A DNA stretch of 64,000 nucleotides from Octopus vulgaris (Eukaryota): positions 2,852,001 through 2,916,000 of the forward strand of contig OX597817.1 of NCBI GenBank assembly GCA_951406725.2, in the 5' to 3' direction. Every line of letters begins with the position of its first letter. Position 1 is the first letter of the stretch. Below, piece by piece: positions 1 through 49,415 of this stretch. The position numbers and the translations under genes are program-made. The notes beneath the pieces are model-generated. The model saw nothing but the letters and a program-made list of their open reading frames with translations. It had not been told where the DNA came from and ran no database searches.

Positions 1-487
1 CAAGGAAGCAAATAGATTTATAGTGGTAGGTGGGAGCATTCACATGGCTACAGTGTTTGAATATTCAAGAAGTGGTTATGGTGTGAGGCAAGTTATAAGT
101 AATCATGTGTAAAATAAGAGATATCAAAATGTCTGCAAGAAATATCAAAGCCGTAAGATCTTCTCCAGTCTAGCTGTAACTTATTCTGAGATCGAATAAT
201 TAAAATATTGTTTGGTGGTCTGCAATTTTGACTCAACGATTTTGAAATTGCATTTCTATATGTTTCAGTCATGAGTTGTTGCTTGAATATTTAGGGATAT
301 ACTCCTGATGGTACAAAAGACTCGGTGTTCTAATCTTAATTTCAAATAGCATTTTCTTCGGAAGTCTTGAGCTCCATTTTTCTTTCTCTTTCTGTGTCGC
401 TATCTCTCTTTCTTTTCAACACTCATATGCGTCTGTGTCTGTGTGAGAGTGGGTATATTAAACATTGTTTTCTTTGAAAACATATAA

Positions 488-702
488 TGGTTTCAAATTT
501 TGGCACAAGGCCAGCACGTTCGGGAAAGGGAGATAATCGATTACATCGACTCAAGTGCTCGACTGGTACTTATTTTATTGACCCCGAAAAGATGAAAGGC
601 AAAGTCAACCACGGCAGAATTTGAACTCAGAACGTGAAGACGGATGTAATGCCGCTAGGCATTTTACCTGGTATGCCAACGGTTCTACTAGCCCGCCGCC
701 TT
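488..702 (-). mobile_element. tRNA-derived SINE, family A (tail type 2, ...GGCCTTGTGCCAAAATTTGAAACC)
   Basis: Reverse complement matches the copies at 1156 and 44774: AAGGCGGCG.GCT.G.AGAA.CGTT head, GAGTTCAAATTC B-box-like motif, central GACTTTGCCTTTCATC..TTCGGGGTC.ATAAA.TAAGTACC block. Confidence 0.85.
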
Positions 703-1155: not shown

Positions 1156-1368
1156 AAGGCAACGAGCTGGCAGAAACGTTAGCACGCCGGGCGAAATACT
1201 TAGCGATATTTCGTCTGTCTTTACGTTCTGAGTTCAAATACCGCCGAGGTCGACTATGCCTTTTGTCCTTTCGGGGTCGATAAATTAACTACCAGTTGCG
1301 TACTGGGGTCGATCTAATCGACTGCCGTCTCCTCCAAAATTTCGGGCCTTGTACCTAGAGTAGAAAAG
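1156..1368 (+). mobile_element. tRNA-derived SINE, family A, with 18-bp target-site duplication
   Basis: Head AAGGCAACGAGCTGGCAGAAACGTTAGCACGCCGGGCG, B-box-like GAGTTCAAATACC. Flanked by AATATTCTTAGGTCAGTG (1138-1155) and AATATTCATAGGTCAGTG (1369-1386). Confidence 0.9.
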
Positions 1369-1416
1369 AATATTCATAGGTCAGTGGGAGATCAGGACTG
1401 GGAGGTTATATTCTTG

Positions 1417-3528: not shown

Positions 3529-4086
3529 ATTTTGTCGCTGCTGCTGTTGATAAGCTTGATGTAAGCTCTGGTCCGGTAGACCAATGATCAAAACCGTTCT
3601 AGCAGTAACCATTTCGTTTTCTTTTACTCGGAATTAATGTATCTAGGACTGCATGACCTAATAACGTGTCTTTCCTTTTGTAAAAACAGTAGAGTTGTGA
3701 TGTAAAGACACATTTAACTGATATTTTTAGCAGGCCGACTGGCAACATAATTGGTCAGTGGTTAGTTTGGTTTTCCTTGGGGGTTTGCCCAATCGTTTTA
3801 ATCGAACTCGGAATATAACAGAACTCCATGTATTATCTCCAGACGAATAACTCAGTACTGAGAAGACCAAAATTTAATTCAGTAATTTAGTATTGTACTT
3901 TAGATGTTTAAGTATGTGGTTGGTGCTCTATCTTTACTGTAAGGAAACAACCATCACAATACTCTTAAACCGTATATCAAATCTTTCAAAAATTTTTTTT
4001 AAATACAAGAAAACTGGTTTTGTAAAGAAAAACGGTAGAGAATGAGATATTAAAGATCGAATCTATCCCCCGATATTTATGTTCTT

Positions 4087-4494
4087 ATTTCTTTACTGCC
4101 CACAAGGGGCTATACACAGAGGGGACAAACAAGGACAGACAAACGGATTAAGTCGATTATATCGAACCCAGTGCGTAACTGGTACTTATTTAATCGACCC
4201 CGAAAGGATGAAAGGCAAAGTCAACCTCAGCGGAATTTGAACTCAGAACGTAGCGGCAGACGAAATACCTATTTCTTTACTACCCACAAGGGGCTAAACA
4301 CAGAGGGAACAATCAAGGACAGACGAACGGATTAAGTCGATTACATCGACCCCAGTGCGTAACTGGTACTTAATTTATCGACCCCGAAAGGATGAAAGGA
4401 AAAGTCGACCTCGGCGGAATTTGAACTTGGAACGCAGCGACGGACGAAATACCGCTAAGCATTTCGCCTGGCGCGCTAACGTTTGTGCCAGCTC
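4087..4494 (-). mobile_element. Family A SINE, head-to-tail dimer of the 183-bp body with tail type 1
   Basis: Units 4087-4269 and 4270-4452 are near-identical; a single head lies at 4453-4494. The minus-strand junction reads AAAGAAATA|GGTATTTCGTC. Confidence 0.9.

Positions 4495-7126: not shown

Positions 7127-7273
<147 letters not shown>

Positions 7274-8130: not shown

Positions 8131-8134
<4 letters not shown>
7382..8134. repeat. 354-bp unit in tandem plus inverted arrangement inside (TA)n; Penelope pseudo-LTR-like
   Basis: Unit 1 at 7382-7735; partial direct copy at 7736-7925; inverted copy at 7926-8134 (reverse complement of ~7426-7633). (TA)n on both sides. Confidence 0.85.
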
Positions 8135-10240: not shown

Positions 10241-10397
10241 ACAGGAGTGAATGTGTGGTAAGTAGCTTGCTTATGAACCATATGGTTCTGGATTCAGTCC
10301 CACTGCGTGGCACCTGGGGCAAGTGTGTTCTACTATAGCTTCGGGCCGACCAAAGCCTTGAGTGGATTTGGTAGACAGAAACTGAAAGAAGCCCGTC

Positions 10398-10487
<90 letters not shown>

Positions 10488-10690
10488 TTGTGTGTGTGTG
10501 TGTGTTTGTCCCCCCAACATCGCTTGACAACCTATGCTGGTGTGTTACGTCCCCTTAACTTAGCGGTTCGGCAAAAAAGACCGATAGAATAAGTACTAGG
10601 CTTACAAAGAATAAGTCCTGGGGTCGATTTGCTCGACTAAAGGCGGTGCTCCAGCATGGCCACAGTCAAATGACTGAAACAAGTAAAAGA
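10241..10690 (+). mobile_element. tRNA-derived SINE, family B, full length with internal (TA)n(TG)n
   Basis: High similarity to 59461-59860 and 42167-42575 over the whole length. Confidence 0.92.
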
Positions 10691-12244
10691 GCACCCTTGC
10701 AGGAAGTGTAATGAAACTCTTAGTTTTATGGCTAAACAGTCTAATGATCCTAAAAATATCTTTAAGAATTTTATTTAAACAACATCTAGCAACGAACACA
10801 TGCTTTAACTCTTCCTCCAGTTCCCACAAATACGTACTTATATAACACTGAAGAATAAAGTACCTAAACATTATTAAGCATAATTAAAGAGGAAACCACT
10901 AAACACGACTGACAACCAAACATCTCACCATTGAAATAGAAAAGGTAACATTTGATGGTTCAATCCACGATACAATTTATTTGTAACTAAATTCATAGCA
11001 AAACTTAATGCTTCCCTTATAAAAGAAATCTGCCATGATGCTGAAATTATAGAACTTCTAATATGAGAGTTGTCAAGATTTTATATTCTACTACACTAAA
11101 CTTTCAATAAATTATTATTTCTTTTCATCAAATTAAATACGAGATCTGCACCTACCAGACCTACAAACTGCAGCTTCACTATCCCAACTAATTACTTTTT
11201 GAATTTTAACTATTTAGCAAAGGATATAGTTTACAAATATAATGTGTACACTGCAAATACTGTAAAAATATCTATTTCCCTTATTGCTAGTCCCTTTCCT
11301 TTTAACTAAAAGGGACATACATAATCGTCTGAAATTATTCCAAAAGTATTTCCACTTTGATTTCTGATTACGTTGTAATTTAAAATTAAAGAATTCGAAA
11401 CTGAAGAAAATTTTCCCTAGAGCTTTTATATTATAGCCAGACGTAAAGAACCATGCAATCTTTGTACGACCAGTAACCCGAGCCCACACTCGAAACTCAA
11501 CCAAGAAGAACTAAAATACATTTAAACGTTATAAAGCCTCACTACTGGATAAATATCAAAACGAATCTATTCTTTTTGTACTAGTGTCGTTACCAACAAA
11601 GGAGGACGTGTGTGTATGAGAGAGAGTGTTTTTGTGTGTAGATGTACGTATGTGTGTGTGTACGTACATATGTGTGTGCTTTTGTGTGTCTGTATATGTG
11701 TTTGAATTCGTGTTCCTGTGTGTTTTGTTTACAAATCAGAATTGTTGTCGTAACTGCATCTCCTAATTGCATTTCTCAGATATCAACCCAGATGCAAACA
11801 AATCTATTTTTTGTTTTTATCTATACTGAGCAATATATGAAAATAAAATTTGCTCTACTTAAAACTCAAGACTTTTTAGTAATAAAATACGACATGCTAA
11901 TAAGTCGAGGTCAATTTTCTGCCTAGAAATGCCAAGCTGAACATGATATTGCAGTAATATGAAAACACATAAGCAATAAAAGAAATAAAAGCGGAATTAA
12001 CAAACGCAATAGAAAAGAAAGACAGCGATAAGGTCATAGTGATCTTTTACAGCTAAGAGATTCTATTTCTTTTTTAAATGGAATTATTTCAAAAGCAATT
12101 TGTTTTCAATTTCCAAAAAGTGCATTTGAAGTTTCGTTTGTTGATAATTTCGTATGTTTGTGTACTCTTTTCTTACATCTATTTTATAAATCTAATCTTC
12201 ATCCCTTATCTGATTTCTTTGCATCTGCGACTTCCTTTTTTTTC

Positions 12245-13410: not shown

Positions 13411-15046
13411 TTGCTATTACTTTCTCTCACTTTCTCTCAGTCAGGGCTATTACTCTCACTACTCTCCTTCACTAAATTACTATTTTCTCTCCTCTCCTTT
13501 CACTTATACTACTCTTCATCCTACTCTTTCTGCTTGGTTTTGGACAAATATATATATATTTATATATTTGTATGTACACATACCAACATTCATACATACG
13601 TACATACGTACATACATACATACATACATACATACATACATACATACATACGTACATACATACATACATACATACATACATACATACATCTCATACATAC
13701 AGAGACCAAGAAGTAAAAGAAGGTGAGTAGATGGAAATGAGAGAGGAGAAGGAGAGAAAGAGTGATAGAGAAAGAATTGTGTGATTGCAAAACAGCGTCA
13801 GTTTTTCTAAAGTCTTCTTTTGTTCAGGATTTCTCATATTTCTGTGCCAGTCTTTATTAGATTTATTAGAAACATTTAATTTACGCGGTCCTATCTATGC
13901 AGCCCTTTCTGATTCCAGATTCTGTAAGGAACACTTTTTGCGACTGGTGATATTACTGTTTTATTTAAGGCAAAATTCATTGAAACATAGATTTTGCGTG
14001 TTTTCACAAGAACTTGCTGTCAGAAAATTGATTTCATCTTCGAGAATGATGTTAACAGCTGTTGTTCAAACTCAGATCAAGCTTGATTGAAGAAATTTAC
14101 GAACAAACGGAGTCCTGCCGTGACCATCTCATTTTCCAGATATTGTGCATTGATGTTAATATCAACTGATGTGTCATCCTATTCTTAAGCTGCCTTGGAA
14201 TAATTGGAATACTTACTTCTAGCACAGGAACAGGGTTTCAATTTTCGGGAGTAAATGATAGCCAATAGTGTCGGTGTCACTATTTGATTGGTATTATATA
14301 TTGTCGATCCCAGAGGGACAAAATGCAATATTGATCTCAGCAGGACATGAAATCAAAACCTAAAATGCTGAAACAAATACTGCAAGGTATTTTTTCGATA
14401 TTCTATCGATTTTGCTCATCCATTTCTTTATTGCTCGGGGATGATACAAAGGAAATTTATCTAGTATTTCAAGATGGTCAAGTAACCACGGAGACTCTCA
14501 CTTCTTTCGTGATTTACTACATGTTCCCTGTATTACTTCGGCATTATATTTGCATTACGTTTGCATCAGCTTTGATTAACACGGCGTCCCAAATATTCTG
14601 ATCTTTTCGAAATTTCATACAAAATACTTGTCCTCTACTAATGCTTTTCCACTAAGTTGTCTTTTGTGCTGTACAATATAATGGGTTACATTGACTCGTT
14701 GTAGAAACATAGAGAACCAGTGGGGAAATGCGGTATCTGTATGGCCGATATAACAGTTCAAACCCATTATATTTACAACTTTCAAATTTGATATTATAAA
14801 TTTGAAAATTAATTTTTTTTCTTCGTTTACCGATCTGAGAACGATGTAAAACAAAGGGTACTTTAGTGGGGATTCGAATTCACAATATAAATACCCACAA
14901 CAAATATTGCAGCATTTATTCTGATTCTGCTAAACCACGACTCTAATTTGTAAATTAAATTCGCAGAAGATTATTTGGTTTGGTGCATGTTAATTTTGCA
15001 TGTTTTATGAAATAACATTAATGCAAGATAATATTGTAATATAATT

Positions 15047-15293
15047 AAGGCGGCGAATGGCAGAAACGTTAGCACGCCGGGCGAAATGCGTAGCCGTATT
15101 TCGTCTGCCGTTACGTTCTGAGTTCACATTCCATCGAGGTCGACTTTACCTGTCATCCTTTCAGGGTCGATAAATAAAGTAGCAGTTACGCACTGGGGAC
15201 GATATAATTGACTTAATCCGTTTGTCTGTCCTTGTTTGTCCTCTCTGTGTTTAGCCCCTTGTGGGTAGTAAAGAAATAGGTATTTCGTCTGTC
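15047..15293 (+). mobile_element. Family A SINE with tail type 1, followed by a short re-start of the body
   Basis: Full head and body, tail ...TTTAGCCCCTTGTGGGTAGTAAAGAAATA, then GGTATTTCGTCTGTC. Confidence 0.9.
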
Positions 15294-16244
15294 TGTTATT
15301 GAAAATTTATTGTTGGAGTCTGTTCGTAAAGTAAGTTTCTCTTGATCGTTGTATCGTTATATCTCTTGTTGTGCCTATTGTTGGACTTATTGTTTAAAAA
15401 TTGCATTATAGTTTTCTTTCGAAAGCTATCTATAGTTTTCCCCTGTGAGTGAAAACATTAATTGCCGGCAAGATGCCGAAAAAGTGTGTTTTAGTCGTGT
15501 GAAGATTCATCGACCGAGCGGTATACGAGGAAGATTGAAAGTTTAATTTTTGATGAAGTTTCTGATGTTCCGGAAAGTGAATTCCCTGCATTACCAAAAA
15601 GTTACGGATACGAAAAGAAATATACGGATACCAAAGTTACGGAAAAGTTACGGATACCAAAAGAACCCTAAAACAATGGGGTGGCCTAATACTTTTGGCC
15701 AAGGCTATAACACTCTTCTCTGTACGTATTTACAATGAATAAACTATTGCTGTATCGATCTATGATTTGAACTACTTCATTATGGTTATATCTGTTATTG
15801 AATACCTATTGTTTCTCTGTCGTCACCGTCTCTGTTATATCATTAATTACTTTTTGCAAATTTTCGTACTAAGGAGTGTATAATTGATATTTCACACTTA
15901 TGTAGATATTGAGTTTATTAAGACACCTATAGATAATTATTGATGAATTTATTGATTTCATAGTACGAAGAGACACTTGAATTCTTATCGATATTAATCT
16001 GAAGATTATAGTTATTTACAGACAATTTTATTTCTTTATCTATATTTTCTTATTTGAATAAAAGAGTAAGTATGTCATCCGTGTATCTGGTAGGAATTAT
16101 TTGTCAGTAATTTAATTTCGTTTGATTTTTCAAGGTGTCTATGCAGAACATGCAAATTCAGATCCAAGCTGTGAACTTGTCGCCACTGTGATATTGATGA
16201 AAAAAAAAAAGCAGAAAGAGATAAACACCGTTCTGTGTCATACC

Positions 16245-18757: not shown

Positions 18758-20395
18758 CATTGGTCAGCAAAAAACATTATGAAATGGTGTCGAGACACTA
18801 AACCTCTCTTTTAGCTAATTTGAGGGCGCTGAATCTGAAAATGACCTTACTTTTTCTTGCTTAGCTACCGTTTTTGCTGTCCAGAAATGCTTCATTTGAT
18901 ATTGTATATTTGATATTGACCGATAGCAATATTTCTCAAAATAAAATCATAGAAACTTCTCAATTCGGATTTAAACCAACAAATATTGGTCTGCTCATTG
19001 AGGAATACTATTTTTGCAATAACAACCAGACCCTAAGTCTTTAAAAATAACACGATTGAATATACCAAGACCAACAAGTATTTTCATTAAATCATTAGAT
19101 AAACTAACAGCAGAAATAAAACCTTCGTGAACATAAGACCTATGGTAAAATTTTCCTCTTTCTTGATTGTCAGTCATGTTCGATATTATCTAAGTCCCTT
19201 TTGATACCCCAGCAGTAGTCAACCATCATTCGTTTGTCCCACCATCCCTGGTAGCGCTCTTCCATTGTTTTGATAAACTGATGGAATCGTTCTCGTTGCT
19301 CATCACTCATATCGTCGCAATTATATGGAAATTTACCTAGATAGCTATGTAAAAAATTAACCTTAATGCTCATAGTAGCGCCTATGTTCTGTAAACTTTT
19401 CAACAGCTTTTCCACAAACTCATTGTAGTTTTCGACCCAGCGATTGCCTAAGAAGTTTTTCACCATGTCAACAAACGATGTCAAAGCGGGTAATTCCACG
19501 TCATTCATTGAATTAACAAATTCATCATCCTTAATGAGTTTCCTGATATCAGGACCGTCAAACACTCCTGCTTTGAGTTTTTTGGTGCTAAGTCCTGGAA
19601 ACGATTTACATATATACTCAAAACGTTTACTTTCTTTGTCGAGTAATTTTACAAAATATTTCATTAATCCCAATTTGTTATGCAAAGGAGGGAAGATGAT
19701 TTTCTCTCTCGGAACTAGCGCTACACTAATAATGGTCTTTCCTCTAACCTTCAACTCTCGGGATGGCCAATCTATCCTTTTCCAGTGCTCCTCTCAAGCA
19801 GGAAATTTACCATTTTCAAATCGACCACCCATTTATGTTTGGTGTAGTCAATCTGTTCCATAACCTGTTTGATGGCATCATTTATTTTTTTCAATGTTGT
19901 TGAATGACCTATCGGTATTGGTGCATACATGTTGGTATTATGGATTAAACACATTTCAAACTACGCTTTGAACTATCGATGAACAATTTCCATTCATCAG
20001 GATCGTATTTGTGGGCACTTATTTGTGTTTACTAAAGTATATTACTAATAAAGTTTATCAGTTAATTTGAATTTTGGCAATAAATTGGAAAATTCGGTAC
20101 TTCTATTTTAAAAGGTTTGACTCAAAAATACTTTTTTCTTATGAAAATAGTTCATTTCAGGTGGCTGACATAAATTGCTCAGCCTACCTAAAAATTCATG
20201 GGTTTCTATTACATTTTTAAGCTAAATTTTGCGATCAGTCAATATCGTAAATTGATCTTTTTACCAAAAATGAGCTATTTCAGTACACGGTAGCTAACAA
20301 TGAAAAACTAAGATCATTTTCGGAATCAGCACCATCACATTAGCTAAAAGAAAACGTATTTGACCAGTGTTATGATATTATATTGTTGACCAGTG
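18758..20395 (-). mobile_element. Chapaev3-like (CMC) DNA transposon, internally deleted
   Basis: Imperfect TIRs of ~120 bp (CATTGGTCAGCAA.../...TTGTTGACCAGTG; 18810-18880 mirrors 20281-20350). TTA on both flanks (18755-18757, 20396-20398). CA(C/T)..GTG ends with a 3-bp TWA TSD fit Chapaev3. Confidence 0.8.
19170..20010 (-). pseudogene. Chapaev-type DDE transposase, C-terminal half, frameshifted
   Basis: Motifs WKLFIDSSKRSLK, PIPIGHS, PPLHNKLGLMKYFVK, GVFDGPDIRKL, MSIKVNFLHS, SDEQRERFHQ, RYQGWW..M..DYCW across ORFs 19772..19954 and 19170..19754. Confidence 0.85.
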
Positions 20396-21310: not shown

Positions 21311-22568
21311 CAGGGTTTGACAAAATAATGGAAACACCTAGTATCATAGCATCATAATTTTGAAATTTCTATAACACCGACAAAAGTTTGTTTATTTTTA
21401 TGTTGTCTTTTTTTAATTTATTATTAGTATTGCTTAATATATTTTGCTAAAATTGCTGTTTCTTTTCAGATATCATCAGAAAAGGTAATTAAAATTCATT
21501 AAAATAATAGATCTATCGAACTTTCGAAGAGGTCAAATTATTGGTGCTCGTATGGCAGGCTCTAGCGTAGCGAAAACAGCTGAAATGTTTGGGGGTATCA
21601 CGAAGTAATGACTGCCTTTGAGAAAGAGGGGAAAACCCCCTCATCAAAGCAAAACTCCGGAAGAAAACCAAAACTTTCAGATAAGGACTGTCGGACCCTT
21701 ACGCGAATTGTTAGAAAGGATCGCAAAAGTACAACTCCCAAAATTACTGCAGAGCTTAATGACCACCTCGAGAACCTAGTTTCCACAAAAACTGTTCACC
21801 GGTAGCTGCACAAAACCGGATTTCACAGGAGGGCTGCAATCAGAAAACCACTACTTTCAAAAACAAACGTTGCAAAGCGTTTTGAGTGGAGTAAAAGCCT
21901 ACAGAATTGGTCCCTAGAGCAGTTGAAAAATGTTATTTTCTCGGATGAGTCATCCTTTACTTTATTTCCGATCACCAGCCGAGTATACGTGTGGAGATAG
22001 CCAAAAGAAGCATTTGACCCAGACTGCTTTCTTCCAACTGTTAAACGTGGAGGAGGATATGTGATGTTCTGGTGGGGGGGGCTATATCTTGGAAATCCGC
22101 CGACCCAATGGTTTCCCTTCATGGCAGAATTAATAGTCAAGACTATTTAAGCATTTACTCTGATCAAATTCATTCTATGGTTGTGGAACTGTTTCCTGAA
22201 GGAAACACAATCTTTCAGGATGATAATGCACCAATTCACACAGCTGAAGTTGTTACTGAATGGCACAAAGAACATTCTAGTGAAGTTGAACAGCTTATCT
22301 GGCCACCACAGTCCCTAGATCTTAATATTATTGAATATTTATGGTGCATTTTAGAAAAACAAGTAAGGAGTCGATAGCCTCCACCATCACCACTATACTA
22401 GACTGTTTTAGCTGAAGAATGGACAAAAATTTCTTTGGAAACAATTCAAACTTTGTACAAGTCTATACCTCGTAGAATTCAAATTGTAATTACTGTCAAA
22501 GGCGGTCCTGTGTATGTATGTGTGTGTACGTTCATGCATAATGTTTCCACTATTTTGTCTAACCCCTG
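21311..22568 (+). mobile_element. Full-length Tc1-family DNA transposon (1258 bp)
   Basis: ~27-bp TIRs (CAGGGTTTGACAAAATAATGGAAACA / TGTTTCCACTATTTTGTCTAACCCCTG). TA at the left flank, TG at the right. Internal transposase relic. Confidence 0.92.
21510..22510 (+). pseudogene. Tc1 transposase pseudogene, DD36E catalytic spacing
   Basis: HTH region DLSNFRRGQIIGAR, GRKPKLS, VIFSDES, FQDDNAPIH, WPPQSLDLNIIE. Several stops and frameshifts (ORFs 21608.., 22072.., 22435..). Confidence 0.9.
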
Positions 22569-24170
22569 TGTAAACTCCCACACTTTCCGATGTAAGAGTA
22601 CTCTACGCATATATCTTTATTCTATGAGTGTACAGGATATGAACATCCCCTTGCATTCTCGTGTGCTGACGTGGAATGTGATCATCAGAAAGACGTACCC
22701 ATGAGTAAGGACTTCCCAAAAGTATCAACAGGTTTTTGCTGGGCCCCGATTAGTTGAAGCAGATTAGAACACAATCTCTCATTCTGCCAAACGGAGATAG
22801 ATTTGAGCTCAGAGCACTGATGATGACACAATGCCGCAAGTCAATTGTATCCAAGGTTCCAATGATTGTGCTGTTACGACACATTTACATACGCACACAC
22901 ACACGCGTATTCATATACACACATACACATACATACACAGATACATACATACAGGCAGAGAGCTGACATTTGCGATAATTCAAAGCAATCAACTATCATT
23001 TTGTTTTTCTGCAACATATCGAATGTTTATAAATATATCGATTTTGTGTATAGTAAAGGATACATTACTATATTGACTACAGAATGGAGGTCAATGACAG
23101 AAACAGTACATCATACGACAAAATAATTTGTAATATTTGATTACATGTCCTTAAGTTCGAAGTTCAGATCCCGCCCAGGTCGAATTCACTTTTCATCTAT
23201 CTGCGGTTGGTAAAATAATTATATTTCTAATATTGGGAGCCGATATAATCGAATGTACACGTGAAAGTGGTGTCCCAGGGGTCCAAAGTTCAATGCCTGC
23301 AACCAGTAACAGAATATCGTTTTATCATCTGTACTTTTGTTTCATTTTATAATTATTTAACGCTCACATACCAATGGTTCCTCCGTCGATGTCGACTATG
23401 CTCGATTCAATAGTTCGATCATTTGAGCTACTCTCTCATTCTATTAGTATAATAGTGGCTTTATATTCGCCGGGTGATGGTACCCTTATGAAGAATTCTG
23501 AGGCAAAATCAATGTGAAAAAGCTGACGTTTTCTGTTAACGGTTTCGAGGCTTAAGATAAACATTCCGCTAAAACATGCATCGAGAACACACCTCTCTCA
23601 TTTGTTCGACACAATCCGACATTTTGTGTGTGTGTGTGTGTGTACGTTCATGCATACACATACATATACACGCTGAACAACAAAAATAAACTTTTAAAAA
23701 ATAGGTATCGATTTTGACTTGGTTATATGGAAAAGCGTAAGAATTCTTTATGTATTTCTGAGTGTTGATCAAAGACCTGTGCTTCAATACAAGAATGAAG
23801 ATTTCAGAGAGATAGTCAACGGTTTCGTACGCTCGTATTTGTATTGAGTGAGTTTCATTTTGTCATCATAGCAATTTATTTCGAAACTTTGCTCGTCAAT
23901 CTGATGACTAGAGGAATTTCAGTTCGAGGGGGTCTGTAATACATAGATTATGGTTTTGAAAGGCTTGAACTGTTCAAACACGAAAATAGGCGATACATAC
24001 AGAATGAAACATATACAAACATGCACAGCATATACATATACATATATATATGTATATATATAAAAAGGACTGAAACCTCTGGAGCTGGTACCTCACAACA
24101 GTCACGGCTATTGTATATATATATACACACACACATATATAGATACACGCCTACCTACTTACTTATGCAC

Positions 24171-24209
<39 letters not shown>

Positions 24210-24211
24210 AA

Positions 24212-26303
24212 TACAACGAGGACGAATCGTTAGCCAGAAATAGGAGTAACTACACCCCCTCGAAAGGTAAGAATAAAACACTTGATGATTTCTGTGACCA
24301 CATATCAAATTACCCATATCAACATATGCACAAACAAAAACACAAACCAAACTTCAGCAAAAAAGAATGGGCTGAGTTGAACAAATTAAAACTAGATAAA
24401 ACAATAACAATCAAAGAGGCCGATAAAGGGAGTACAGTTGTCTTAATGGATACGACATTTTACATAACTTTGGTACTTTCTATGCTGGAAGACACAACAT
24501 ACTATGAAAAGGCACAAAACTACAGTCAACAAAAAATAATGAGGGAACTAAAATCCATATTAAACCCATACAAAGCAGGGCTCACCGACAAAGAATATGA
24601 TTATATGACCAATTTCACAAGTAAAACTAGCCAATTCTACGGTATACCTAAGATCCACAAAAGTGAAAAAATAAGCAACGCATGCAAGATAGCTACAGAC
24701 AAAATAATTAAAGTCCCTAATCCTAATGACCTCAAATTGAGACCCATAATAGCAGGTCCCGCATGCGAAACCCACCGCCTCAGTAACTTTTTAGACACCC
24801 TGTTAAAACCACTCCTCAAACATGTCAAAAGCTATATAAGGGACGACTTAGATATGCTCAATCACCTACCGAATACTATAAACAAAAACACCATACTGGT
24901 ATCCTTCGATGTAGTCAACCTCTACTCCAATATCCCCCACAACCTAGGACTAGAGGCAATCCAATTCTGGCTAGAGAATCACGCCAACGAACTACCACAC
25001 CGCATCAAAAAAGAATTTGTGATAGAAGGGGTTAAATTCATCCTGGAAAATAACTTCTTCGCCTTCAATGACAACTTCTACCGACAAAAATCGGGGACTG
25101 CGATGGGTACACGAATGGCCCCCTCCTTTGCCAACCTAGTCATAGGATACCTAGAGATCAGTCTGTATCGTAAGGTTCTAGAAAGATATGGCAGCCCTTT
25201 CTCCATCTACATAGAAAACAACTGGAAGAGATATCTAGATGACTGTTTCATCCTTTGGCATAAAAATATAGAAAAACTCATAGAATTCCAGAAAATTTTA
25301 AACGGACTGGACGTAAACATCCAATTCACGATGGAATATAGCCAACAACAACTCCCCTTCCTCGATATCCTCATTAAGAAAGCTAATAATATAATAGAAA
25401 CAGACATATACTATAAGCCTACAGACTCTAAGCAATATCTTCCATTCAATTCATGCCACCCCAGACACACCAGGATGAATATCCCCTTCAATCTAGCAAA
25501 AAGGATATGCACTATAGTCTCTAACGCAAACACCAGAGACACACGACTACAAGAACTAAAAGATACCCTAATCACCAGGAACTATCCACCTTCACTTATT
25601 GACAAGTGCATTCAACGTGCCCTTCAACTTAACATCAAGGAACTGAGACATCCCAAATCAAAGAAAAACTTACAACCAAAAGCCTTACCATACATCTCCA
25701 CACACAACCCTCTCAATAACGAAGCCTTCGACACCATCCTCCACAACATACCCCTCCTAAAAAAAGACCACAGAATGAACACAATCCTCCAAACACACAC
25801 GATCATAAAAAGCAAAAGACAGCCTAGATCCATGAAAAGTCTCCTTACACAAGCCCGAATTCACTCTTCAACACAGAAGCCGACAGTAAAAAAATGTGGA
25901 AGACCCAATTGCGGGATATGCGACTATCTAATCGAGGGTTCTGAGTTCTCCTTCAAACAGGGACAACGGTTTACAGTGAAAAGCAACTTCACATGTGCTT
26001 CGGAGAACCTAATATACTCACTAACCTGCTCCGGGTGTCAAGAGCAGTACATAGGCCAAACAAAAAATGGTTTGCGTAAACGAATGGCCCTGCACAGATC
26101 CCAGATAAAAATTCCCCAAAACAGAAAAATAGTTTTTAGCCAACACATAGATACTTGCGCCAACAAAAAAACACCAAACTTCAGAATTTTTCCCCCTCTA
26201 CCAATTTAGGGACGATACAACCTCGAGACAACGAATAAGTAAAGAAAATCTCTTTATTACAAAATACAAGCCACTTCTTAACGGGTCTACGACAAACAAT
26301 TAA
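24212..26303 (+). CDS. Penelope-like reverse transcriptase + GIY-YIG endonuclease (N-terminally truncated, one terminal frameshift)
   Basis: ADKG motif, FYGIPKIHK, LRPII, SFDVVNLY, GTAMG, RYLDD, LPFLD, YKPT, CGRPNCGIC linker, LIY..C..C..QYIGQT..R..H. The frame is open upstream of the track ATG (24326) back to 24212. Removing one base in TTTTTCCCCC (~26187-26196) continues to ..RISKENLFITKYKPLLN..TAA at 26303. Confidence 0.93.
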
Positions 26304-28393: not shown

Positions 28394-28470
<77 letters not shown>

Positions 28471-28485
28471 ATCTATCTATCTATA

Positions 28486-28965
28486 GGATTAGAGACAAAC
28501 ACTTTCCTCTCTGGTCAATCTCTCATCAACTTCAAGTATCACTTGAAAAGGAAAGTGAGAGTAGAGAAGCAAGTTTTGTCTAGCGAATGTTTCAAAAAAA
28601 GAATGGATGAATGTAACAAGGATAGCACGTATGAATGACGAAGCCACCTTGAGCATGATCCTATGAACCCGGAAAAATTTAAAACAGACAGTTACTTGCA
28701 AATAAATGTGTTAACATGTGACATTATTGACCGAGGTTGCCGTGGTCTTTTCCGTAGGCTTTTCTTTCCACGGATAAACCTTATCTGTTTCCTCCTTTAC
28801 ACTTTACATCATGACATTTCTGTGATACACGATCCTTATTGATCGTTTTTTTTTTTCGAAAACCTACCTCCACCTTATTTTCTTTTTTTTTCTCCCCAAA
28901 AAGAAAAGCTCTACTTTGTAATTTGTCCCCTCTGTGTTCAGCCCTGTGTGGCTAATAAAGAAACA
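28486..28965 (+). mobile_element. 5'-truncated 3' end of a Tx1-like (L1 clade) LINE
   Basis: Translates SLINFKYHLKRKVRVEKQVLSSECFKK(fs)RWMNV..MIL*, resembling Tx1 ORF2 C-termini from memory. Pyrimidine-rich 3' UTR ending AATAAAGAAA. Begins directly after (TCTA)n and is followed by TATCTATC. Confidence 0.6.
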
Positions 28966-29783
28966 TATCTATCCTCGCCACTGCTCACATTCCTAAAACA
29001 ATTAGCGAAATCACAGCCCTGTAGCTAGAGTGTGTGCAGCCCGTCAGAAGCCTTGAGTGCATTGCCATTCCCAGCCCGGACTCCAAACCTATACAGGAGG
29101 ATAATATACAGGTTTATAGAGCAGACTCAAAAATGCCTTCCTCGTGAAAGTGCCGCCCAGAAACCCAATCCACCACTTCTGTCAGAATGGTACATGTATT
29201 CAGGTCATACTCGCTGGCGTGGGACAGAGTTAACGTAGAAAATCTTGAACTTAGAAAATACATATTAATGAAACACTCGGCAATGATTTGCAAAATTATA
29301 ATAGTGTGAAACACTGAGTAGGCTGTTCACAAGTAATCCCATTGTTTATAAACAAGGCATATTCTGAAGGCAGTATACGAATTGCCGATCCTTCAACTCA
29401 AAGTCCGGTTAACTATCGACCAGGCTGAATGGAAACACTAAAATAGAATAGATATATGTATAGGTTATTTTATTTTTATAAAACATATTAGATAACTATG
29501 AACTTTTATCTTTACAAACAAATCACAAGAATGTCGCGGTTGTGTATGTGTAACAAGGTTATATGTATGTATATATGTATGTACGTAAGAAGTACGTACG
29601 TATTTATGTATGTATATATATTTTCATGTATAAATATACATATATTTACATATATATGTGTTTTTGTGCGTATATATATTTCTATCCGTATCTACATGTT
29701 TATGCATATATATATATGCTTATACACACACATACACACATGTATATATATATATACATACTTACATATACATACATACATGC

Positions 29784-33444: not shown

Positions 33445-34800
33445 ATAGTCTCTCTCATTTATTCTCTTCATTTAGCAACCTTTTATTATGGGGCCTCCAA
33501 GTCTCTCTCTTTGCAGCCTCATTAAATGCAAGTGATCCATCATCCATGCGGACACATTTCTCTCCTATGATATCACGATTCTCTCTCAATCACTGTCTTG
33601 CAACATGAAACACTTCAAGTCTTTGGTCCTCACGACGCAGAACATTGGCAAATGTTTTCTTATCAGTTTCCCTTCTGGCTAAATAAACCTGACTCCTAGC
33701 TTCCCTTCTGGCAATGTGATGCAATTCCCTGCTACCATCGTTCTTCCATGCCAGTTTCTTTTCCTTATTGGCCCTGTCAACTACATTGTTCCATCACTTT
33801 ACCTTAGGTCGAGAGGGGACTTTGCACCATCCACAGATCTGGTTAGTAGCCCTCAACAGGTTGTCCTGTAGGAACCTTCAGTTTCTTCCACATCGTGTGA
33901 TGCTATATCCTCTATTTCGAGTAATACGTCTCTAAATCTCTAAATCCTTAAGCTTCCAAACCCTTCTTCCCTATCCTGGTCATCTTCTAGGCATCCATTT
34001 AGCCCTGATCCTGAAGTCGCTAACAACTAATCTATGTTGTGGGGGTGCAATCTTCACCTGGGAAGGTTTTGGCATTTATAAGTAGCCATCTTTCCCGTTT
34101 CCTAGCAAGGATGTAGTCAATTTCACTAGTGTGTCCACAAGACCGGTACGTGAATAGGCGACTGGCAGGTTTCCTAAAGTTAGTATTACAAACCGTTAGA
34201 TCATTTACATCGCAGAACTCCAGCAGCCTGATTCCCTCAGCAGCCGGAACCAAAACTATACCTAACATGTACGCCATAGAAGACCCCTGCATGTGTTCCA
34301 ACATGCCCAGTGAAGTCGCCAACCACAAAGAGAAGGCCCCTGTCATTCGTCAACGAGGTAGTCTGCAAGAGGATGTCATAAAATCGGTCTTTCTGTTCAT
34401 CCTGTAGCCCTGGTTGAGGAGTATAGGCCGAGATAATGGTTGCTAATCCATGTTGTAGAACTAATTTAATTTTAAGTATTCTATCACACACTCTGACTAC
34501 CTCGATCACCTTATCAATCCATTTCTCTGCAAGAAGTATACCCACACCCCGACCCCGTCAGTGTTCCCTACCCAGAAATTCTTATGCTTATGTTCTTTGC
34601 CTGTGAAGAACCTAGCAGAACTTCTCCTTCACCTTACTTATTGGGTACAGCACAAATCTATGCGTCTCCGTTCAAGCATCTCAACAATCTCAACAGACCC
34701 ACCTTTCAATGTGCCAACATTAAGTGTGCCAACTCTGATGGTGTGGAAGGTGACCCTGGGATGGGGGACAGCAGCGTCATGTACCTGAAAAGAAAGCTCG
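33445..34800 (-). pseudogene. RTE-clade LINE fragment: AP-endonuclease and linker, RT missing
   Basis: IRVGTLNVGTL..EMLERRRIDLCC.Q, VGILLAEKW, ISAYTPQPG, VGDFTGHVG, LLEFC..NTNFRK, IDYIL across frameshifted ORFs 34638.., 34237.., 34032..; the probable 5' UTR extends to ~35250. Confidence 0.9.
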
Positions 34801-36189: not shown

Positions 36190-37695
36190 TTGTTCAGTTT
36201 TATTTCAAGATTCTTGCCAATTGAGAAAGAGTCGGCTTCTAACCTAGATCCAAGACTCTTTCATTGGAATTTCATCATTGCTTTATGTATTTGTGCAGAT
36301 TTGTATGTTTTGTTTTATGTGTGTATTCTCATGCACATAGCTGCCTATCAGTCCTGCTCCTAAATGTTTAAATGACGAACTTCTGGAAAGTTTTGCATAT
36401 CCTTATAGTTCCAGTGATGGTTGTTTCAGTCTTCGAATTAGCATTCTCCATTCTAGGTTTGAGAAGCCTAATTTCTCAAGGCTGGTATTTGGGCAGTGTA
36501 TTATATATCCCAGGGCCCGAACGATTACAGGTATAAATCTGAAATTGTAATCTGGATAGAGTAACTGCAGATTTCTCAATAGTTAAGTGTAGGTATTCTC
36601 TTTTTCACTGATCACCAGCTTCATGTTAACATCCGCTGGGGAGCAAATTTCCACAGCTGCGCACAGTTTCTCTTCTCTATCCCAAATCATTATATCAAGT
36701 CTGTTGTGCTTACATGTTATTGAGGTCTTCTCTGGTACATTCCACCAGTACTTCTTTTTATTGAGTGGCAATGGCTTCTACCATACCGTGGGTTTTTATT
36801 TCTTTGTCCTCGGGATTATCCTTCCGACGGATTTCATTATAGAGTGCCCGAGCTACAACATCATGTCTCATCGGTAGATAATACCGTGATGACATTTTCG
36901 GACAACTGCCTATGACGTGGGTGATTTCTTCGGTGTTAACTCCACAAAGTCTGCATTGGTTGTCACATCTTACTGCTTTTCCTGCATCTCTATCCTTTTG
37001 TGCATCAGGTATTTGGTTGATATTTTCTGTTCCTGGATAGCAAACACATACCCTTCAAAGTGGGAGGTAATAAACCGGCTATTGGTCCATGAGAGACTGC
37101 TTTGATGATCAATGTTACTATCATCTCGTAGCTTTCTACTGACATATCCATGCATAGTCTTCTGCTCATATAGGCTCATCCTTTGATCTGATGATACGTT
37201 GCGGTAGAGTCGTGCGACTTTTTTGGGCAGGTATTCTAGGTTATCAGTCAAGGAATGTTGCTTAAGGAGTTGCCATCCAAGTCTTGGGAAGTTATCAGCC
37301 TCGTGTATGCAAACTTGGTCAAGGAATGCACTTCGACATATTTTAGTTAAAAGATATTGCCGAAGCGATATGATACGACATTGAAAGGCATTTTGGATCG
37401 ATGTTAAGCCTCTGCCGCCTTGTTTTCATTATAGGTAGTGGTGGTCTGCATCACTGTTTATGTGGAAATTACCTGTGCTTGTTAATATTTTTCAGGTTTT
37501 CACATCAATAGCTCGGATCTCAGCAAGAGTCCAATCAAGTAGCCCAAATTTTGATATGAGTACTGGCACTGCAAATACATTGTGAGCCACGGGTTTATTT
37601 ATTGCAGAGAGTTCTGAGGTCCCCGTTTTCTTTATTCCGCTGTTATATTCTTTAGTGGTAAGTGTTTTGTTACAGGTGCTATTGTAAGATGTAAG
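36190..37695 (-). mobile_element. R4/Dong-like (RLE) non-LTR retrotransposon, 5'-truncated, decayed
   Basis: Minus strand: post-RT SELSAINK..N.FAVPVL..FGLLDW, GGRGL, MHG, EGYVFAIQEQ, CRLCG...E.ITHVIGSC zinc knuckle, RHD.V, RLE motif RLD..WD..VEICSPAD.N..EKENTY; then a 3' UTR running into (CATA)n. Confidence 0.88.
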
Positions 37696-42166: not shown

Positions 42167-42575
42167 TGGAGTGGCTGTGTGGTAAGTAGCTTGCTTACAA
42201 ACCACATGGTTCTGGGTTCGGTCCCACTGCGTGGCACCTTGGACAAGTGTCCTCTACAATGCCCTTGGGCGACCGAAGCCTTGTGAGTGGATTTGGTAGA
42301 CGGAAGCTGAAAGAAGCCCGTGGTATATAAGTATATATATGTATGTATGTGTGTATGTGTATGTTTGTGTGTCTGTGTTTGTCACCGCCACCATCATCAC
42401 TTGACAACCGATGCTGGTGTGTTTACGTTCCCGTAACTTAGCAATTCGGCAAAAGAGACGGATAGAATAAGTACTAGGCTTACAAAGAATAAGTCCTGGG
42501 GTCGATTTGCTCGACTAAAAGGTGGTGCTCCAGCATGGCCGCAGTCAAATGACTGAAACGAGTAAAAGAGTAAAA
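42167..42575 (+). mobile_element. Family B SINE, near full length
   Basis: High similarity to the 59461 copy. Confidence 0.92.
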
Positions 42576-44028
42576 TACATAGAATATTGATAAATACACA
42601 CGTACTTGTACATGAACAAAATGAATAATTATAATAATAACGTTATATAAATAAAATGTCAAATATTTTGGTGCTTGACTTTTGGCTCACAGTATGTGTG
42701 TGTGTTTGTGTGTTGTATTGTATAGTGTCTGCTGTTTATTTACATTAATATGAAGGCATTTTACTTCAATATTTTACTATCAAATGATTTTTTTTTAAAA
42801 TTATATCACAAAATCAGTGCATTATATTACAGTTTTTACTTGGTTCCGTCTGCTATGCTTATCATTCTCTGCACACGTTTTCCTGTCGTCATGATAAAAA
42901 TAAGATACTGAATCAGAGAAAGTGATTAAAATGGAAAAATAATTCGTTTTTATCATAAGAATTTAGAAACTTCGTGAGTCGTGAAATAATTTCTTTTGAT
43001 AGTAGAACTCGCAGGTGAGGACGAAGTTGTTGAATGGCAAAATTCGAATGATCGCCTTCTAACAATGGAAAAACTTTTGTCTTGTTTATAGATGTAGGTT
43101 CGAGTGCCACGGGTAGCCGCCGTCTATTTCCACCCAAAGAGTTTTTAACCCACTATTTACACGCTGTTATTTATAGTTTTATCTATTTCGAGATGCACCG
43201 TTGAAAATATTTGGAGTTTTTAAAGTTTAGCCCCAAGGTGACCCTATCGAGCAGACCTATTATAATAGACATTCTGGCCATTTTTTCCCCGGACATTAAG
43301 TATTCCACTCTACATTAAACAATATGTCCTTCCTTTCTTAAGGCAATTGGATGATTGATTCATGTAGATTTGGCATCTGTTTCTAGCCCATCGAACAAAT
43401 ACTTAGAGGGTTCTTCCTATTATATAATCTCTTCCATTAATTGCTATACATGAAGCCGAGCTTCTTGCTGTAGAATTCAGATGTGAATTATTCAGCAAGA
43501 AAAGCCCAGGTTTTGGTTTCTAAAAAGAATAATTACCCTTTATTTACGGAGTTAAATTTCTTACCGAGAAAACTTCCATAACATGCCTTTATAAATGTTT
43601 CTCTTTAAATGTGAAACCTTCTCTTCCATTGTAAATAATTACCTTTATTTCTAAAGAAGCGTGATTTGACACGAACGTTCAAGCTTCAGAATTAATCGCT
43701 TATCATATTTTGTTTTGATTCCTTATATTCTGAGCTCAGATCTTGTAGTCAAGATTATCTTTTATGATTGCTAGTCAATGAAAAGATGTTTCTCTTTAAC
43801 AGGATGCTCCACATTTTTAGAAATAGTTGATTGAAACTATCTCAGTGCATGATTTGCTTTTATATACAGACTCCAGAAGGATGAAAGACAAAACTGTTTC
43901 AAGTGGAATTGGTACATGAAATAAAATGTGTCGTAAATAAAAACTTAACGACATCTGGCCCAGTACTTTTGATGTTTTTGCCATCGCACCTTTCCTGCGA
44001 CGATAAAGTAGATACAAGAAATAAATTG

Positions 44029-44226
44029 GTTTAAAATTTGGGTACATGGCCAGGAATTTCGGTGACGAGGTAAGTCAATTATGTTGACTCCATTGCTCAC
44101 CTGGTGCTATATTATCAATGTATTTCATCGATGAAAGGCAAAGTCGACCTCGGCAGAATTTGAACTCAGAACGTAAAGACGGACGACATGCTGCTAAGCA
44201 TTTTGCGGGGGCGGTAACGATTCAGC
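44029..44226 (-). mobile_element. Family A SINE (tail type 2) with TSD
   Basis: Central block GATGAAAGGCAAAGTCGACCTCGGCAGAATTTGAACTCAGAACG; flanked by TACAAGAAATA(A/T)ATTG at 44013-44028 and 44227-44242. Confidence 0.85.
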
Positions 44227-44773
44227 TACAAGAAATATATTGAAGTAAATTCAGTCAAATATATATCCGTCCCAAAAACGTTGGTTCTGTGCCGGTAAGA
44301 AAAACAGTTACCCTGTTTGTAACTTGATAAGCATCTAAGTATATTAAAGTAAGCAACAACACCTACAACCAATTACACAACGCAGTTTGTCTTCTTGATT
44401 GTCACCTTTTGACTAATGAGTCAACGATGGTGCTTCTGTGCGGTCATTCGCTTCCTAAAAATAGCAGTTAAGTCTTCCCTAAATACCTCTTTACTAAAAT
44501 AAATGGCGTCATATTAGCTAATTGAGTCCCTTGTGCCTGAAAAAGATGAGGTCGTTAAGGATAAAATGCCTTTCATCATAATACTGCTCTATCAGAGATG
44601 ATCTGAGAAAAAATAGCATACAATCTTAACGTTCTAAAACTGTGTATATGAAACAGTCCCACTACACACACAGATAAACATGATGTTTATTATCCAAAAA
44701 GAATCCTTTGTATTTAGTACAAGTTGCGTTTATGTTTTCATAAATCGATCTCAATACTGGTTTCTTTTGTTAT

Positions 44774-45172
44774 AAAGCGGCGAGCTGGCAGAAACGTTAG
44801 TACGCTGATTGAAATGCTTAGCGGTATTATCGTCTGCCGCTACGTTCTGCGTTCAAATTCCGCCGAGGTCGACTTTGCCTTTCACCCTTTCGGGGTCAAT
44901 AAATTAAGTACCAGTTACGCACTGGGGTCGATGTAATAGACTTAATCCGTTTGTCTGTCCTTGTTTGCCCCCTCTGTGTTTAGCCCCTTGTGGGTAGTAA
45001 CGAAATAGATATTTCGTCCGTCTTTAAGTCCTGAGTTCAAATTCTGTGGAGGACGACTTTGTCTTAATACTCTCAGGGTCAATAAAATAAGTACCATTTG
45101 AACACTGGGATCGATGTAATCGACTTTGCCCCTTCCCTAGAACTGCTGGCCTTAAGCCAAAATTTGAAACCA
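44774..45172 (+). mobile_element. Composite family A SINE: head + tail-1 unit + diverged tail-2 unit
   Basis: First body is near consensus and ends GTGGGTAGTAACGAAATA (~45008). It is immediately followed by GATATTTCGTC and a more diverged body ending GCCAAAATTTGAAACC. Confidence 0.9.
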
Positions 45173-47854
45173 ATATCGGTTTGTTATATAAAACTGAGTT
45201 ATGATTTTACTATTACTTGAACTCAGACTAACATGTTATTAGGACAATTGTTTTGAAGTCTGGACAAAGTTACAAAAGTATTTTGTTGTATGTAATCCCT
45301 TGCGTTCTGATTCTAAATCCTGCCGAGGCTAACGTTGTCTCTCATCTCTTTTAGGGCCAATAAAATGGTATTACCAATCAACTATTCGCTGCGAATTAAT
45401 AGACCTATGAAACATACTATAAACTAATAAAATAAAAGACAAGAAGATTAGAGTTTTCTTCGCCCCATAGATATAATAGATAATGATGACAGTATATATA
45501 TCCCCGTTCGAGACAGAATTGCTACATTAGGTTACAAGTAGAGGATTATGTTAGTTTTCAAAGTTGTACATTATTACTCTTATTTTTGTTGTTTGTTATT
45601 TGCTTCTAATTTGAGCTACTTGCTACTTTAATATTTTAATACCCCATTTTAAAAATAAAAGATAATCCTATTGGATAGCTTAAATTACCATCTAAGAAAA
45701 CAAGCAATCCGAATGCGTATATGCGCATTACAGAGAGCGAAAGAGATACGTTTTCACACACACACACACACCTATGGTGCTATCTAGTGCTCGCTATAAC
45801 GAAATCAATCCGACAACCGGGATTGGCGATGAAAGTTGTTTTAGATTTTTTACAACACCAATCGGTTTCATTTTCGATTGGATTCGGTGATTTATTGCTG
45901 AATGTTTACCTGACTGGATTGCAAGAAAGCGCTTTTATTTATAAACAGCGTAATAATGGTATTACTTTCAACTCTACATACTAATTAATTACAAAAGTTC
46001 TGCAAGTCATGTCACTTTCTTTCTTCTCTTCTTTGAAAGCGATGTTAGACTTTCATCTGTCGGATCAGCTAATCATCGCCTGCTCTTTCCCCTGTGTAAA
46101 ATTAGTTACACTTCCTATCTCCTATCCTGCTACTTTCTTTGATATAATTATGTCAAGGACTGTCTATAATAATCTGCTTTGTTTCTGATTTATACAGTCA
46201 TTATTTGCATTAGTCATTAATTGCTGATGAGGATGCTTAACCCCGCGGCAACTCTGATCAAGCAAATCTGTGATCAAAATTGTTTCAGCTCGATCTTCCC
46301 GTCCCGTCCAGTCCTTTATTTAGAGATACTATAGCTATTGCTACACTAATATGTTCTTTCTGTTTTAATACTATCGGCGTTTAACACTAGTTTCGTTGGC
46401 ATTTTCTTAAATGCAGAATAATCATCAAAAAACTCCCACCTTGGGTCCTAGTCCGTAATATAAATGATCGTGTAATAAACTGTATAATATACAGCATTAA
46501 GCCAAACACACAGTACAGGATAATTTGCACAAATTGCATGGGTTTTCTGCCTTCAAGAAACAGTAACCCAGTCTCATTTAAATAACACTATATTGAATTT
46601 AAAAGGAAGTACGCGTCAGATAATGTAGATTTAATACGCTAATTCTTAAAAGAGACGGAGTGGTCATGTCTGGAGATCTTTTATCATGGTCCTGCGAAAG
46701 TAGTGCTGTCCTGGGTCTAAATAACAACATAGCAGAAAATCCTAACTAACAATTAGTTTAATAAATATCTGTTAATGACTATTAAATAGGATTCTGCTAA
46801 TTATTATTGTAAACAAGTGGGAGTAACATCACGGATAATTGAAATGGTAATGCCGCAGACAAAGAGCTTAAGTGTTTGTGGTTATCAATTCTGTTGCATC
46901 TGTGACTTAGATATCCCAGCCTTAAAGTCCTTGTTTCCTTGGCCCTAAATAAATAACGCATTGATACGTAACGTTGACAAGTGTTTTGTTCAAGAAGCTG
47001 ATAGTCATTTCGTGACTCTCCTGCATAGGGAAAATGCCCATCCTCTATTGAAGGGCGTATTTGTTAAATACATAAATCTACACTAGCCAACGAGGAAAAC
47101 CACTGTATCATGGTTCACCTTGCTACAAGCAGCAGGCAAATTCACACTAAGAACACCTTGTCGTGATAAAAAATAAAAAAGACTGATATAATAAGTGTTG
47201 TAATCCATGATAAACAAGACATCAAGGCGACGGACAGTGATTGAATACTTTTGAAAGTATGTTTACTCAGTCAGCACTAACTTGGGACTATACAACAACA
47301 ACAGCAGAAGCAGCAGCAGCAGTAGCACCAACAGCATCAGTTGCAGCAGCAGTAGCAGCTGTAGAAATCAATGAAGTTGACCTGGTATTTGGACGATCAA
47401 CTGAAGAATGGAAATGTATTGATATAATCAGATACAGCTTTAAAATGTATGACAATGCTTAGCAATTTGAAGCAGGTTGTATTGCATTTCACTTGACACC
47501 ATTATCACTTTTTTCAGACAATGAAGCCTCGCTGACATAGAGGTGCGATAGCAGCAAACCTATTGTTTTGGCAATCAATGTTTTAAGCTAACTAGAAAGT
47601 TACATTAGTTCTAATATATGTTTAATATGAATATCGATCGAAGCGAAAATATTTATCATCATTTGTGGCGTGTTGATATTGATCATATGAGTCAATAACA
47701 GGATGCATATTTTGACGAGATATTATATTGGTAGAAAGTTATCCTTTGCAGCCATTCGGTCACGAAGTTCAACTTTCTCCATAGTTTGAATATTTTCTTC
47801 CAGCCACAATATTTATGACTTTTTTTGACTTTGGCTTTTCTTTTCCTTCTTTTT

Positions 47855-48965: not shown

Positions 48966-49415
48966 AGATCTTTTCGGTTTGAACGGCAGTTTTTCCTAGC
49001 GGTGTCATATGAAATTGTCACCCATAATTATGACCCTAGTATCGATCTATTGCATTTCAATCTGTTTTAGGGTTTAGGGTTAGTTAGGGTTTAGGGTTAG
49101 TTAGGGTTAGGGTTAGGATTGGGGGGAAGGGTATCTTTTTTTATTCACAAATGCAAATAAATCCAATCTGTTTCTTAAACGAGGGACATATTCATTCGGC
49201 ACAGAATGCTTTTTAACTCAATGGACGTCATTGATTGGTTGAAATTGCAGAAATTGAAGAAAAAAACAGCAAATATCGTACAAACTATAGAATTTTCTCA
49301 ATAAAGCCAAGAGAAAAAGATGTTTTATAAACACATTCTACTAGTATACGAAGTTTAAAATATTTTAGTTACCTAGAAATTATGTTAAAAACTGCCGTTC
49401 AAACTGAAAAGATCC
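48966..49415. mobile_element. MITE with ~29-bp TIRs and internal telomere-like repeats
   Basis: (A)GATCTTTTCGGTTTGAACGGCAGTTTTT ... AAAAACTGCCGTTCAAACTGAAAAGATCC. Flanks TCACTGGG/TCACAGGT give a degenerate 8-bp TSD. TTAGGG-like tract at 49067-49118. Confidence 0.85.

What the first reader, a model, noticed from the sequence alone, without database searches (positions are those of the whole stretch)
28921..28965. SINE tail type 1 matches the 3' terminus of a Tx1-like LINE in the same window
Seen: the LINE end TTTGTCCCCTCTGTGTTCAGCCCTGTGTGGCTAATAAAGAAACA aligns without gaps to the SINE tail TTTGTCCCCTCTGTGTTTAGCCCCTTGTGGGTAGTAAAGAAATA (about 38/44 by eye against the copy consensus). Established: SINEs borrow the 3' end of their partner LINE, and Tx1-group elements are often sequence-specific (tRNA, snRNA, 5S, microsatellite targets). 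Inference: tail swapping put family A under a site-specific Tx1 endonuclease, which would explain the fixed nesting site. The Tx1 assignment rests on a short C-terminal peptide.
Basis: partly seen in the sequence, partly recalled or inferred. Interest (0 to 1): 0.75.

Follow-up and report, generated by a model that had tools for sequence, protein, structure and literature searches.

The report
Octopus SINE borrows Tx1-like LINE tail
A short jumping repeat, likely from an octopus, shares its last 44 letters with a high-copy jumping gene that sits in TATC repeats, so it likely borrows that lineage's enzymes, yet it is joined at a different fixed spot inside its own relatives, which this jumping gene's target does not explain.

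Summary
The 44 nt at 28922-28965 match four SINE tails without gaps (36-37/44; 38/44 to their consensus; 200 shuffles reach at most 29), and the likeness stops sharply upstream. 28486-28965 is the 5'-cut end of a high-copy LINE. Its peptide matches the C-terminus of cephalopod APE-RT-zinc-finger ORF2 proteins, which score nearer to Tx1-like proteins than to human L1; no reference tree was possible. The SINE junction does not resemble (TATC)n. The junction is still nucleotide-precise in 3 of 4 SINE ends, with three different downstream partners. At 44773 a young unit is joined to an old copy and the pair is flanked by a 9-nt repeat. The SINE tail differs from this LINE at six consensus positions. 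Most likely a sister Tx1-like family drives it; a junction carried in the SINE RNA is the close rival. I found no animal SINE with a Tx1-like tail in the papers searched; Repbase and Dfam could not be searched.

The parts
28394..28485 (+). (CTAT)n microsatellite, 5' flank of the LINE piece; likely the insertion target
   Evidence: TRF, 23 copies, 97%; sequence
28486..28666 (+). Broken C-terminal end of an L1/Tx1-group ORF2, 5'-truncated; the reading frame shifts near 28602 and the stop is read from the sequence
   Evidence: tblastn 65% over 40 aa to P0070, E 2e-9; hits; translations
28667..28921 (+). LINE 3' untranslated region, T-rich, high-copy
   Evidence: summed contig depth about 1e5-3.5e6 in X1 against about 55 on the flank
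28922..28965 (+). 44-nt terminus shared with the SINE tail; no poly(A)
28966..28973 (+). TATCTATC, 3' remnant of the microsatellite
   Evidence: other copies continue as (TATC)n, and X8 record 24 starts matching at 28966
15046..15278 (+). Full-length tail-1 SINE (tRNA-like head, body, Tx1-like tail)
15279..15294 (+). 16 nt of SINE body from the fixed junction, then unique DNA
44773..45007 (+). Young tail-1 SINE unit (7 of 183 body differences from the other tail-1 units)
45008..45182 (+). Older tail-2 SINE copy that starts at the fixed junction and lacks its own head; a 9-nt repeat flanks the whole composite
   Evidence: 21 of 113 differences from the other tail-2 copies; flanking repeat
4270..4494 (-). 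Tail-1 SINE unit, first of a tandem pair
4086..4269 (-). Second tail-1 unit starting at the fixed junction; its own tail ends in unique DNA
   Evidence: 184-nt period
1156..1380 (+). Un-nested relative with a third tail and a 10-nt target-site duplication (comparison copy)
478..702 (-). Un-nested older tail-2 relative (comparison copy; others at 44021-44226 and 57004-57146)

Best explanation
The fragment is the 3' end of a high-copy, likely Tx1-group LINE whose copies sit in (TATC)n, and the SINE that shares its last 44 nt is likely moved by a sister LINE of that lineage, one predicted to nick SINE heads at the fixed site rather than microsatellites. Shown: the shared tail, the LINE nature of the piece, the (TATC)n flanks, and the precise SINE junction with three different partners. 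Inferred: the SINE gained the tail by a tail swap, and ORF2 recognises that tail. The endonuclease would nick a resident SINE copy just after the loop of the predicted head hairpin (TAGC|GGTATTTC), and reverse transcription would start there. The new DNA would then join upstream by pairing with the resident head, leaving one head, two bodies and the host's outer duplication.
For: Tail match with a sharp edge. The peptide matches the C-terminus of APE-RT-zf ORF2 proteins. Those score 314 bits against a TX1-named coral protein and 291-352 against named fish proteins, against 175 for human L1 ORF2. (TATC)n follows the LINE end in X1, X4 and X8 (131, 92, 66 contigs, plus 27 for a variant end). The SINE tail differs from this LINE at 6 consensus positions while copies differ from their consensus by 1-2, which points to another donor. 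O. vulgaris has 80 L1-Tx1 families (PMC13282606 supplement). At 44773 a unit with 7/183 differences is joined to one with 21/113, inside a 9-nt flanking repeat (33 of 2000 random pairs reach 9). Precedent: SINEU and Tx1-Mar insert into another repeat (PMC4494074).
Against: No LINE copy followed by GGTATTTCGTC was seen among the 18 of 935 loose-end rows shown; one mixed row (X4, 80 contigs, agreement 0.43) is ambiguous. The sister family is therefore unobserved. Only 3 junctions were seen. At 15046 the downstream host stops after 16 nt, which needs a later deletion, and the end at 4086 is off-site. The head at 44773 looks young rather than host-like (5/40 differences against 8-11 for old heads; non-CpG Fisher p 0.13). 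The head hairpin is weak statistically (z about -1.6 in two copies, -0.4 in a third), and its loop edge falls on the junction in only 2 of 6 folded heads. The tail stem-loop is not significant (z -1.6 to +0.2).
Confidence: 0.45

Rival explanations
1. The junction is carried in the SINE RNA. One founding nested copy is transcribed through its tail into GGTATTTCGTC, and this short extension would pair with the same site in any relative and guide priming there, so no endonuclease specific for the site is needed.
For: It explains 15046, which ends 16 nt past the junction in unique DNA, and the single head. PMC4494074 notes that co-transcription with target RNA can strengthen target-specific integration.
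Against: The three downstream units share only about 11 nt and then follow different subfamilies, so priming must fall within about 11 nt of the junction. The end at 4086 has no extension.
Confidence: 0.3
2. Template jumping: reverse transcriptase copies a SINE RNA that is cut or stalled at the head hairpin, then jumps to the 3' end of a tail-1 RNA, and the dimer inserts as one piece.
For: One head and one outer duplication. The junction lies at the predicted loop edge in 2 of 6 heads. Repeated 5' additions by template jumping are described for SINEU-2.
Against: At 44773 the downstream unit is far more decayed than the upstream one, which is unexpected if both were copied together. In SINEU-2 such junctions vary by up to 22 nt, whereas here 3 of 3 are identical.
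Confidence: 0.1
3. This same (TATC)n-targeting LINE moves the SINE, and its endonuclease also cuts the SINE head as a degenerate site.
For: 86% tail identity; the family is abundant.
Against: The junction scores 4-6 of 12 against (TATC)n, a value reached by 68-220 of about 190-220 sites per copy. 0 of 3 tail-1 SINE loci lie in TATC arrays. The LINE's own flanks are (TATC)n.
Confidence: 0.1

Closest known systems
Microsatellite-targeting Tx1 elements: Kibi (TC)n, Koshi (TTC)n, crocodilian Tx1 in (TTCC)n/(TTTC)n (PMC4494074, passages)
   Same: L1/Tx1-type ORF2 in relatives; copies sit in a simple repeat; no poly(A) at the end
   Different: The target here is (TATC)n, which is not among the repeats named in the passages read; the host is a cephalopod; kinship to Kibi/Koshi was not tested
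SINEU and Tx1-Mar of crocodilians (PMC4494074, passages and parts 3-4 of 5)
   Same: A SINE tied to Tx1 machinery that inserts at preferred sites in another repeat, often in tandem
   Different: SINEU has snRNA heads, and no LINE sharing the SINEU-1 3' end was found; here the head is tRNA-like, the tail is shared in sequence, and the site lies inside the SINE's own family
Stringent SINE/LINE pairs (PMC3747384, Table 1)
   Same: About 45 nt of shared 3' end, as in the maize SINE/L1 pair
   Different: No Tx1 partner is listed in that table; its L1-named partners are from maize and Chlamydomonas only
Octopus OR1 / tRNA-Core SINEs and MetaSINEs (PMC4824008, PMC8967140, passages)
   Same: tRNA-like head, common body, exchangeable tails (three tails in this window)
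   Different: Identity with OR1 or with a named domain could not be tested; no partner LINE or nesting was mentioned in the passages read

Membership tests
Tx1-group LINE | ORF2 with APE endonuclease, RT and C-terminal zinc finger | tested here: met
   Met only through relatives. The window holds about 60 codons, which match the C-terminus of P0070 at 65%; P0070 has PF03372, PF00078 and PF13966.
Tx1-group LINE | RT phylogeny inside the Tx1 clade rather than L1 | tested here: inconclusive
   The tree of 36 RT regions had no curated Tx1 or L1 reference, and its backbone is weak (77/82). Scores favour Tx1-like proteins: 314 bits against 175 for human L1. 'TX1' there is an automatic name.
Tx1-group LINE | Sequence-specific insertion | tested here: met
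   (TATC)n on both sides here and behind the end in three runs. The share of copies cannot be given, because the 28973 rows are selected for TATC.
Tx1-group LINE | ORF1 with zinc knuckles | not tested
   No DNA of a full-length copy was obtained.
Stringent SINE/LINE pair | Shared 3'-terminal sequence | tested here: met
   38/44, sharp edge, far above shuffles
Stringent SINE/LINE pair | Conserved 3' stem-loop | tested here: inconclusive
   A short hairpin is predicted in all five tails, but z is -1.6 to +0.2 and the register differs.
Stringent SINE/LINE pair | SINE and LINE share the insertion signature | tested here: not met
   LINE in (TATC)n; SINE ends at G[G/A]TATTTCGTC in 3 of 4
Stringent SINE/LINE pair | Mobilisation in trans | not testable with these tools
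   Needs a retrotransposition assay
tRNA-derived SINE | tRNA-derived head with A and B boxes | tested here: inconclusive
   Box-like motifs by eye, against consensus recalled from knowledge; no ARAGORN or Rfam tRNA hit
CORE-SINE or MetaSINE | Conserved central domain | not testable with these tools
   Consensus figures are not held; the supplement search gave no match and one file was not searched.

The most novel reading that the evidence does not exclude
A cephalopod Tx1 lineage has split into a (TATC)n-targeting branch and a branch that targets the tRNA-like head of the genome's main SINE family. A SINE subfamily captured the latter's tail and so inserts into its own relatives at one nucleotide: a self-targeting SINE that builds its own dimers and tandem arrays.
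Probability: 0.4. Interest if true: 0.7.

Novelty: new variant of a known kind. Interest (0 to 1): 0.48.

Why it matters
A sequence-level SINE tail from a Tx1-like LINE in an animal was not found in the papers searched. It would show that this group recognises its RNA by the 3' end, unlike mammalian L1. The LINE adds (TATC)n to the microsatellite targets read about here. The mismatch between LINE target and SINE site gives a direct test of whether the endonuclease or the RNA sets the target. SINEs make up about 12% of the O. vulgaris genome (PMC13282606), so self-nesting would affect repeat libraries and age estimates.

Tried and rejected
No genome is held for the window. The tail pattern found 0 matches in genome, viral and metagenome contigs. 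The ORF2 C-terminal alignment gave no confirmed locus in the same three collections. The raw-read run X22 laid 0 reads, so it is no test. Summed contig depth is not a copy number and was not converted. The junction as a degenerate (TATC)n site was rejected. Duplication of one old nested locus was rejected because the three downstream units differ. Chance tail match was rejected. (TATC)n as the LINE's own tail is disfavoured but not excluded: the array also lies 5', and X8 record 24 matches from 28966 with 20 unseen letters before it. The ESM Atlas gave only unnamed RT clusters. 'TX1' in PMC4176376 is the name of a mutant protein and is irrelevant. Earlier-finding look-ups by place and sequence were empty.

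Full report
Setting. The window is AT-rich, microsatellite-dense animal DNA with no tRNA or Rfam gene. It is inferred to be octopod: the LINE peptide hits an Octopus bimaculoides protein at 93% over 70% of 40 aa, and a related ORF2 is named from Argonauta. No genome is held.

Observation. The 44-mer is at 28922-28965. It matches four SINE tails ungapped at 37, 36, 36 and 36 of 44, and the next best place scores 26. It matches their majority at 38/44; 200 shuffles reach at most 29; the 40 nt upstream share 7-10. The four tails differ from their majority by 1-2 bases, but the majority differs from the LINE at 6.

The fragment is a LINE end. A two-sequence profile of the peptide found 65 proteins at E up to 0.001. 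The best, P0003, carries zf-RVT (1 of 12 proteins scanned had it). Its cluster member P0070 (1111 aa) has APE endonuclease, RT and zf-RVT, and its C-terminus matches the window at 65% over 40 aa. P0070 scores 175 bits against human L1 ORF2. It scores 314 against a coral protein with the automatic name TX1 and 291-352 against four named fish proteins; two of these that I scanned carry ZCCHC3-type and zinc-knuckle domains. A tree of 36 of these RT regions groups P0070, P0079 and the Argonauta protein (100/100), but it has no curated reference and a weak backbone. 'Tx1-like' is likely, not shown. The window copy is 5'-truncated and frameshifted.

At this locus the LINE lies between (CTAT)23 and TATCTATC. 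I laid four runs on 28486-29200 at 85%. The raw-read run laid nothing. Three contig runs, of three organism codes, laid 20555, 8971 and 3837 records. Depth is thousands of times higher over the element than over the flank and drops at 28966-28990. Of 935 loose-end rows 18 were shown, and 5 of these lie behind the 3' end. Four read (TATC)n: 131, 92 and 66 contigs behind 28973, and 27 behind 28959. One row (X4, 80 contigs, agreement 0.43) is mixed and begins TAAGTATTT; it may hold SINE ends or varied flanks. No row reads GGTATTTCGTC. The 28973 rows are selected for TATC, so no fraction can be given. One X8 contig matches from 28966 onward with 20 unmatched letters before it, while the X1 and X4 contigs carry the tail. 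This suggests an empty site in organism C, and so a target rather than a tail repeat, but the letters were not shown.

The SINE junction. The family has one head and body with three tails in the window. Three of four tail-1 ends join a headless body at the same base, 49-50 nt into the element. The partners differ: an old tail-2 copy (45008), a young tail-1 copy (4269) and a 16-nt stub (15279). At 44773 the upstream body has 7/183 differences from its group and the downstream one 21/113 from its own, noisier group. A 9-nt repeat flanks the pair (33 of 2000 random pairs reach 9). This fits insertion into a resident copy. The resident's head is missing or replaced: the head there has 5/40 differences, against 8-11 for old heads. 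The junction is not TATC-like. It falls at the loop edge of a predicted hairpin in 2 of 6 heads, with weak z-scores.

Mechanism. Tail sharing implies use of the LINE's ORF2; this is established for other pairs (PMC3747384, PMC4824008) and inferred here. Because SINE and LINE do not share a target, this family is unlikely to set the site (0.1). I favour a sister family that nicks SINE heads, with the 5' end joined by homology to the resident head (0.45). The six consensus tail differences, the 80 L1-Tx1 families in O. vulgaris and the SINEU/Tx1-Mar precedent support it, but the family itself was not seen. A junction carried in read-through RNA explains the stub better (0.3). Template jumping fits poorly with the age gap at 44773 (0.1).

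Literature seen. PMC4494074: passages and parts 3-4 of 5. PMC3747384: passages and Table 1; no Tx1 partner is listed there. PMC13282606: part 1 of 3, passages and a supplement search. PMC4824008: passages and a supplement search with one file unsearched. PMC5786205, PMC4758252, PMC8967140, PMC4176376: passages. Searches showed no paper on an octopus SINE with a Tx1 tail or on a (TATC)n-targeting Tx1. The original octopus SINE paper (Ohshima and Okada 1994) was seen only as a citation. Repbase, Dfam and subscription journals could not be searched and may already record this. One earlier AI note from another genome warns that duplication can mimic targeting; here the partners differ.

Verdict. 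The feature is real and is a new variant of a known kind. The shared tail and the (TATC)n preference are solid; the cause of the fixed SINE junction is open but directly testable.

Noticed in passing
window 24185-26209 +: Open frame of 674 aa with RT and a weak GIY-YIG hit: a Penelope-like element, nearly intact.
   Followed up: partly
window 6843-7128 +: A different SINE-like element, by eye, wedged between (TG)n and (TATC)15; its tail is unrelated to tail 1.
   Followed up: no
window 10242-10691, 42168-42596, 53386-53788, 59453-59915 and others: A second abundant SINE-like family with a microsatellite in its middle.
   Followed up: no
window 49067-49117: Short degenerate (TTAGGG)n array, telomere-like, inside the window.
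   Followed up: no
window 15273-15286 and 4262-4275: The joined tail and body form a small inverted repeat across the junction; folding is not significant.
   Followed up: partly
window 7382-8134: Sequence repeated in opposite orientation around 7700-8130, seen as near-identical text in ORFs on the minus strand and in the self-comparison.
   Followed up: no
window 19170-19793, 22045-22704, 34032-34557, 36970-37425: Fragments that look by eye like DNA-transposase and other LINE coding remnants; family names were not tested.
   Followed up: no
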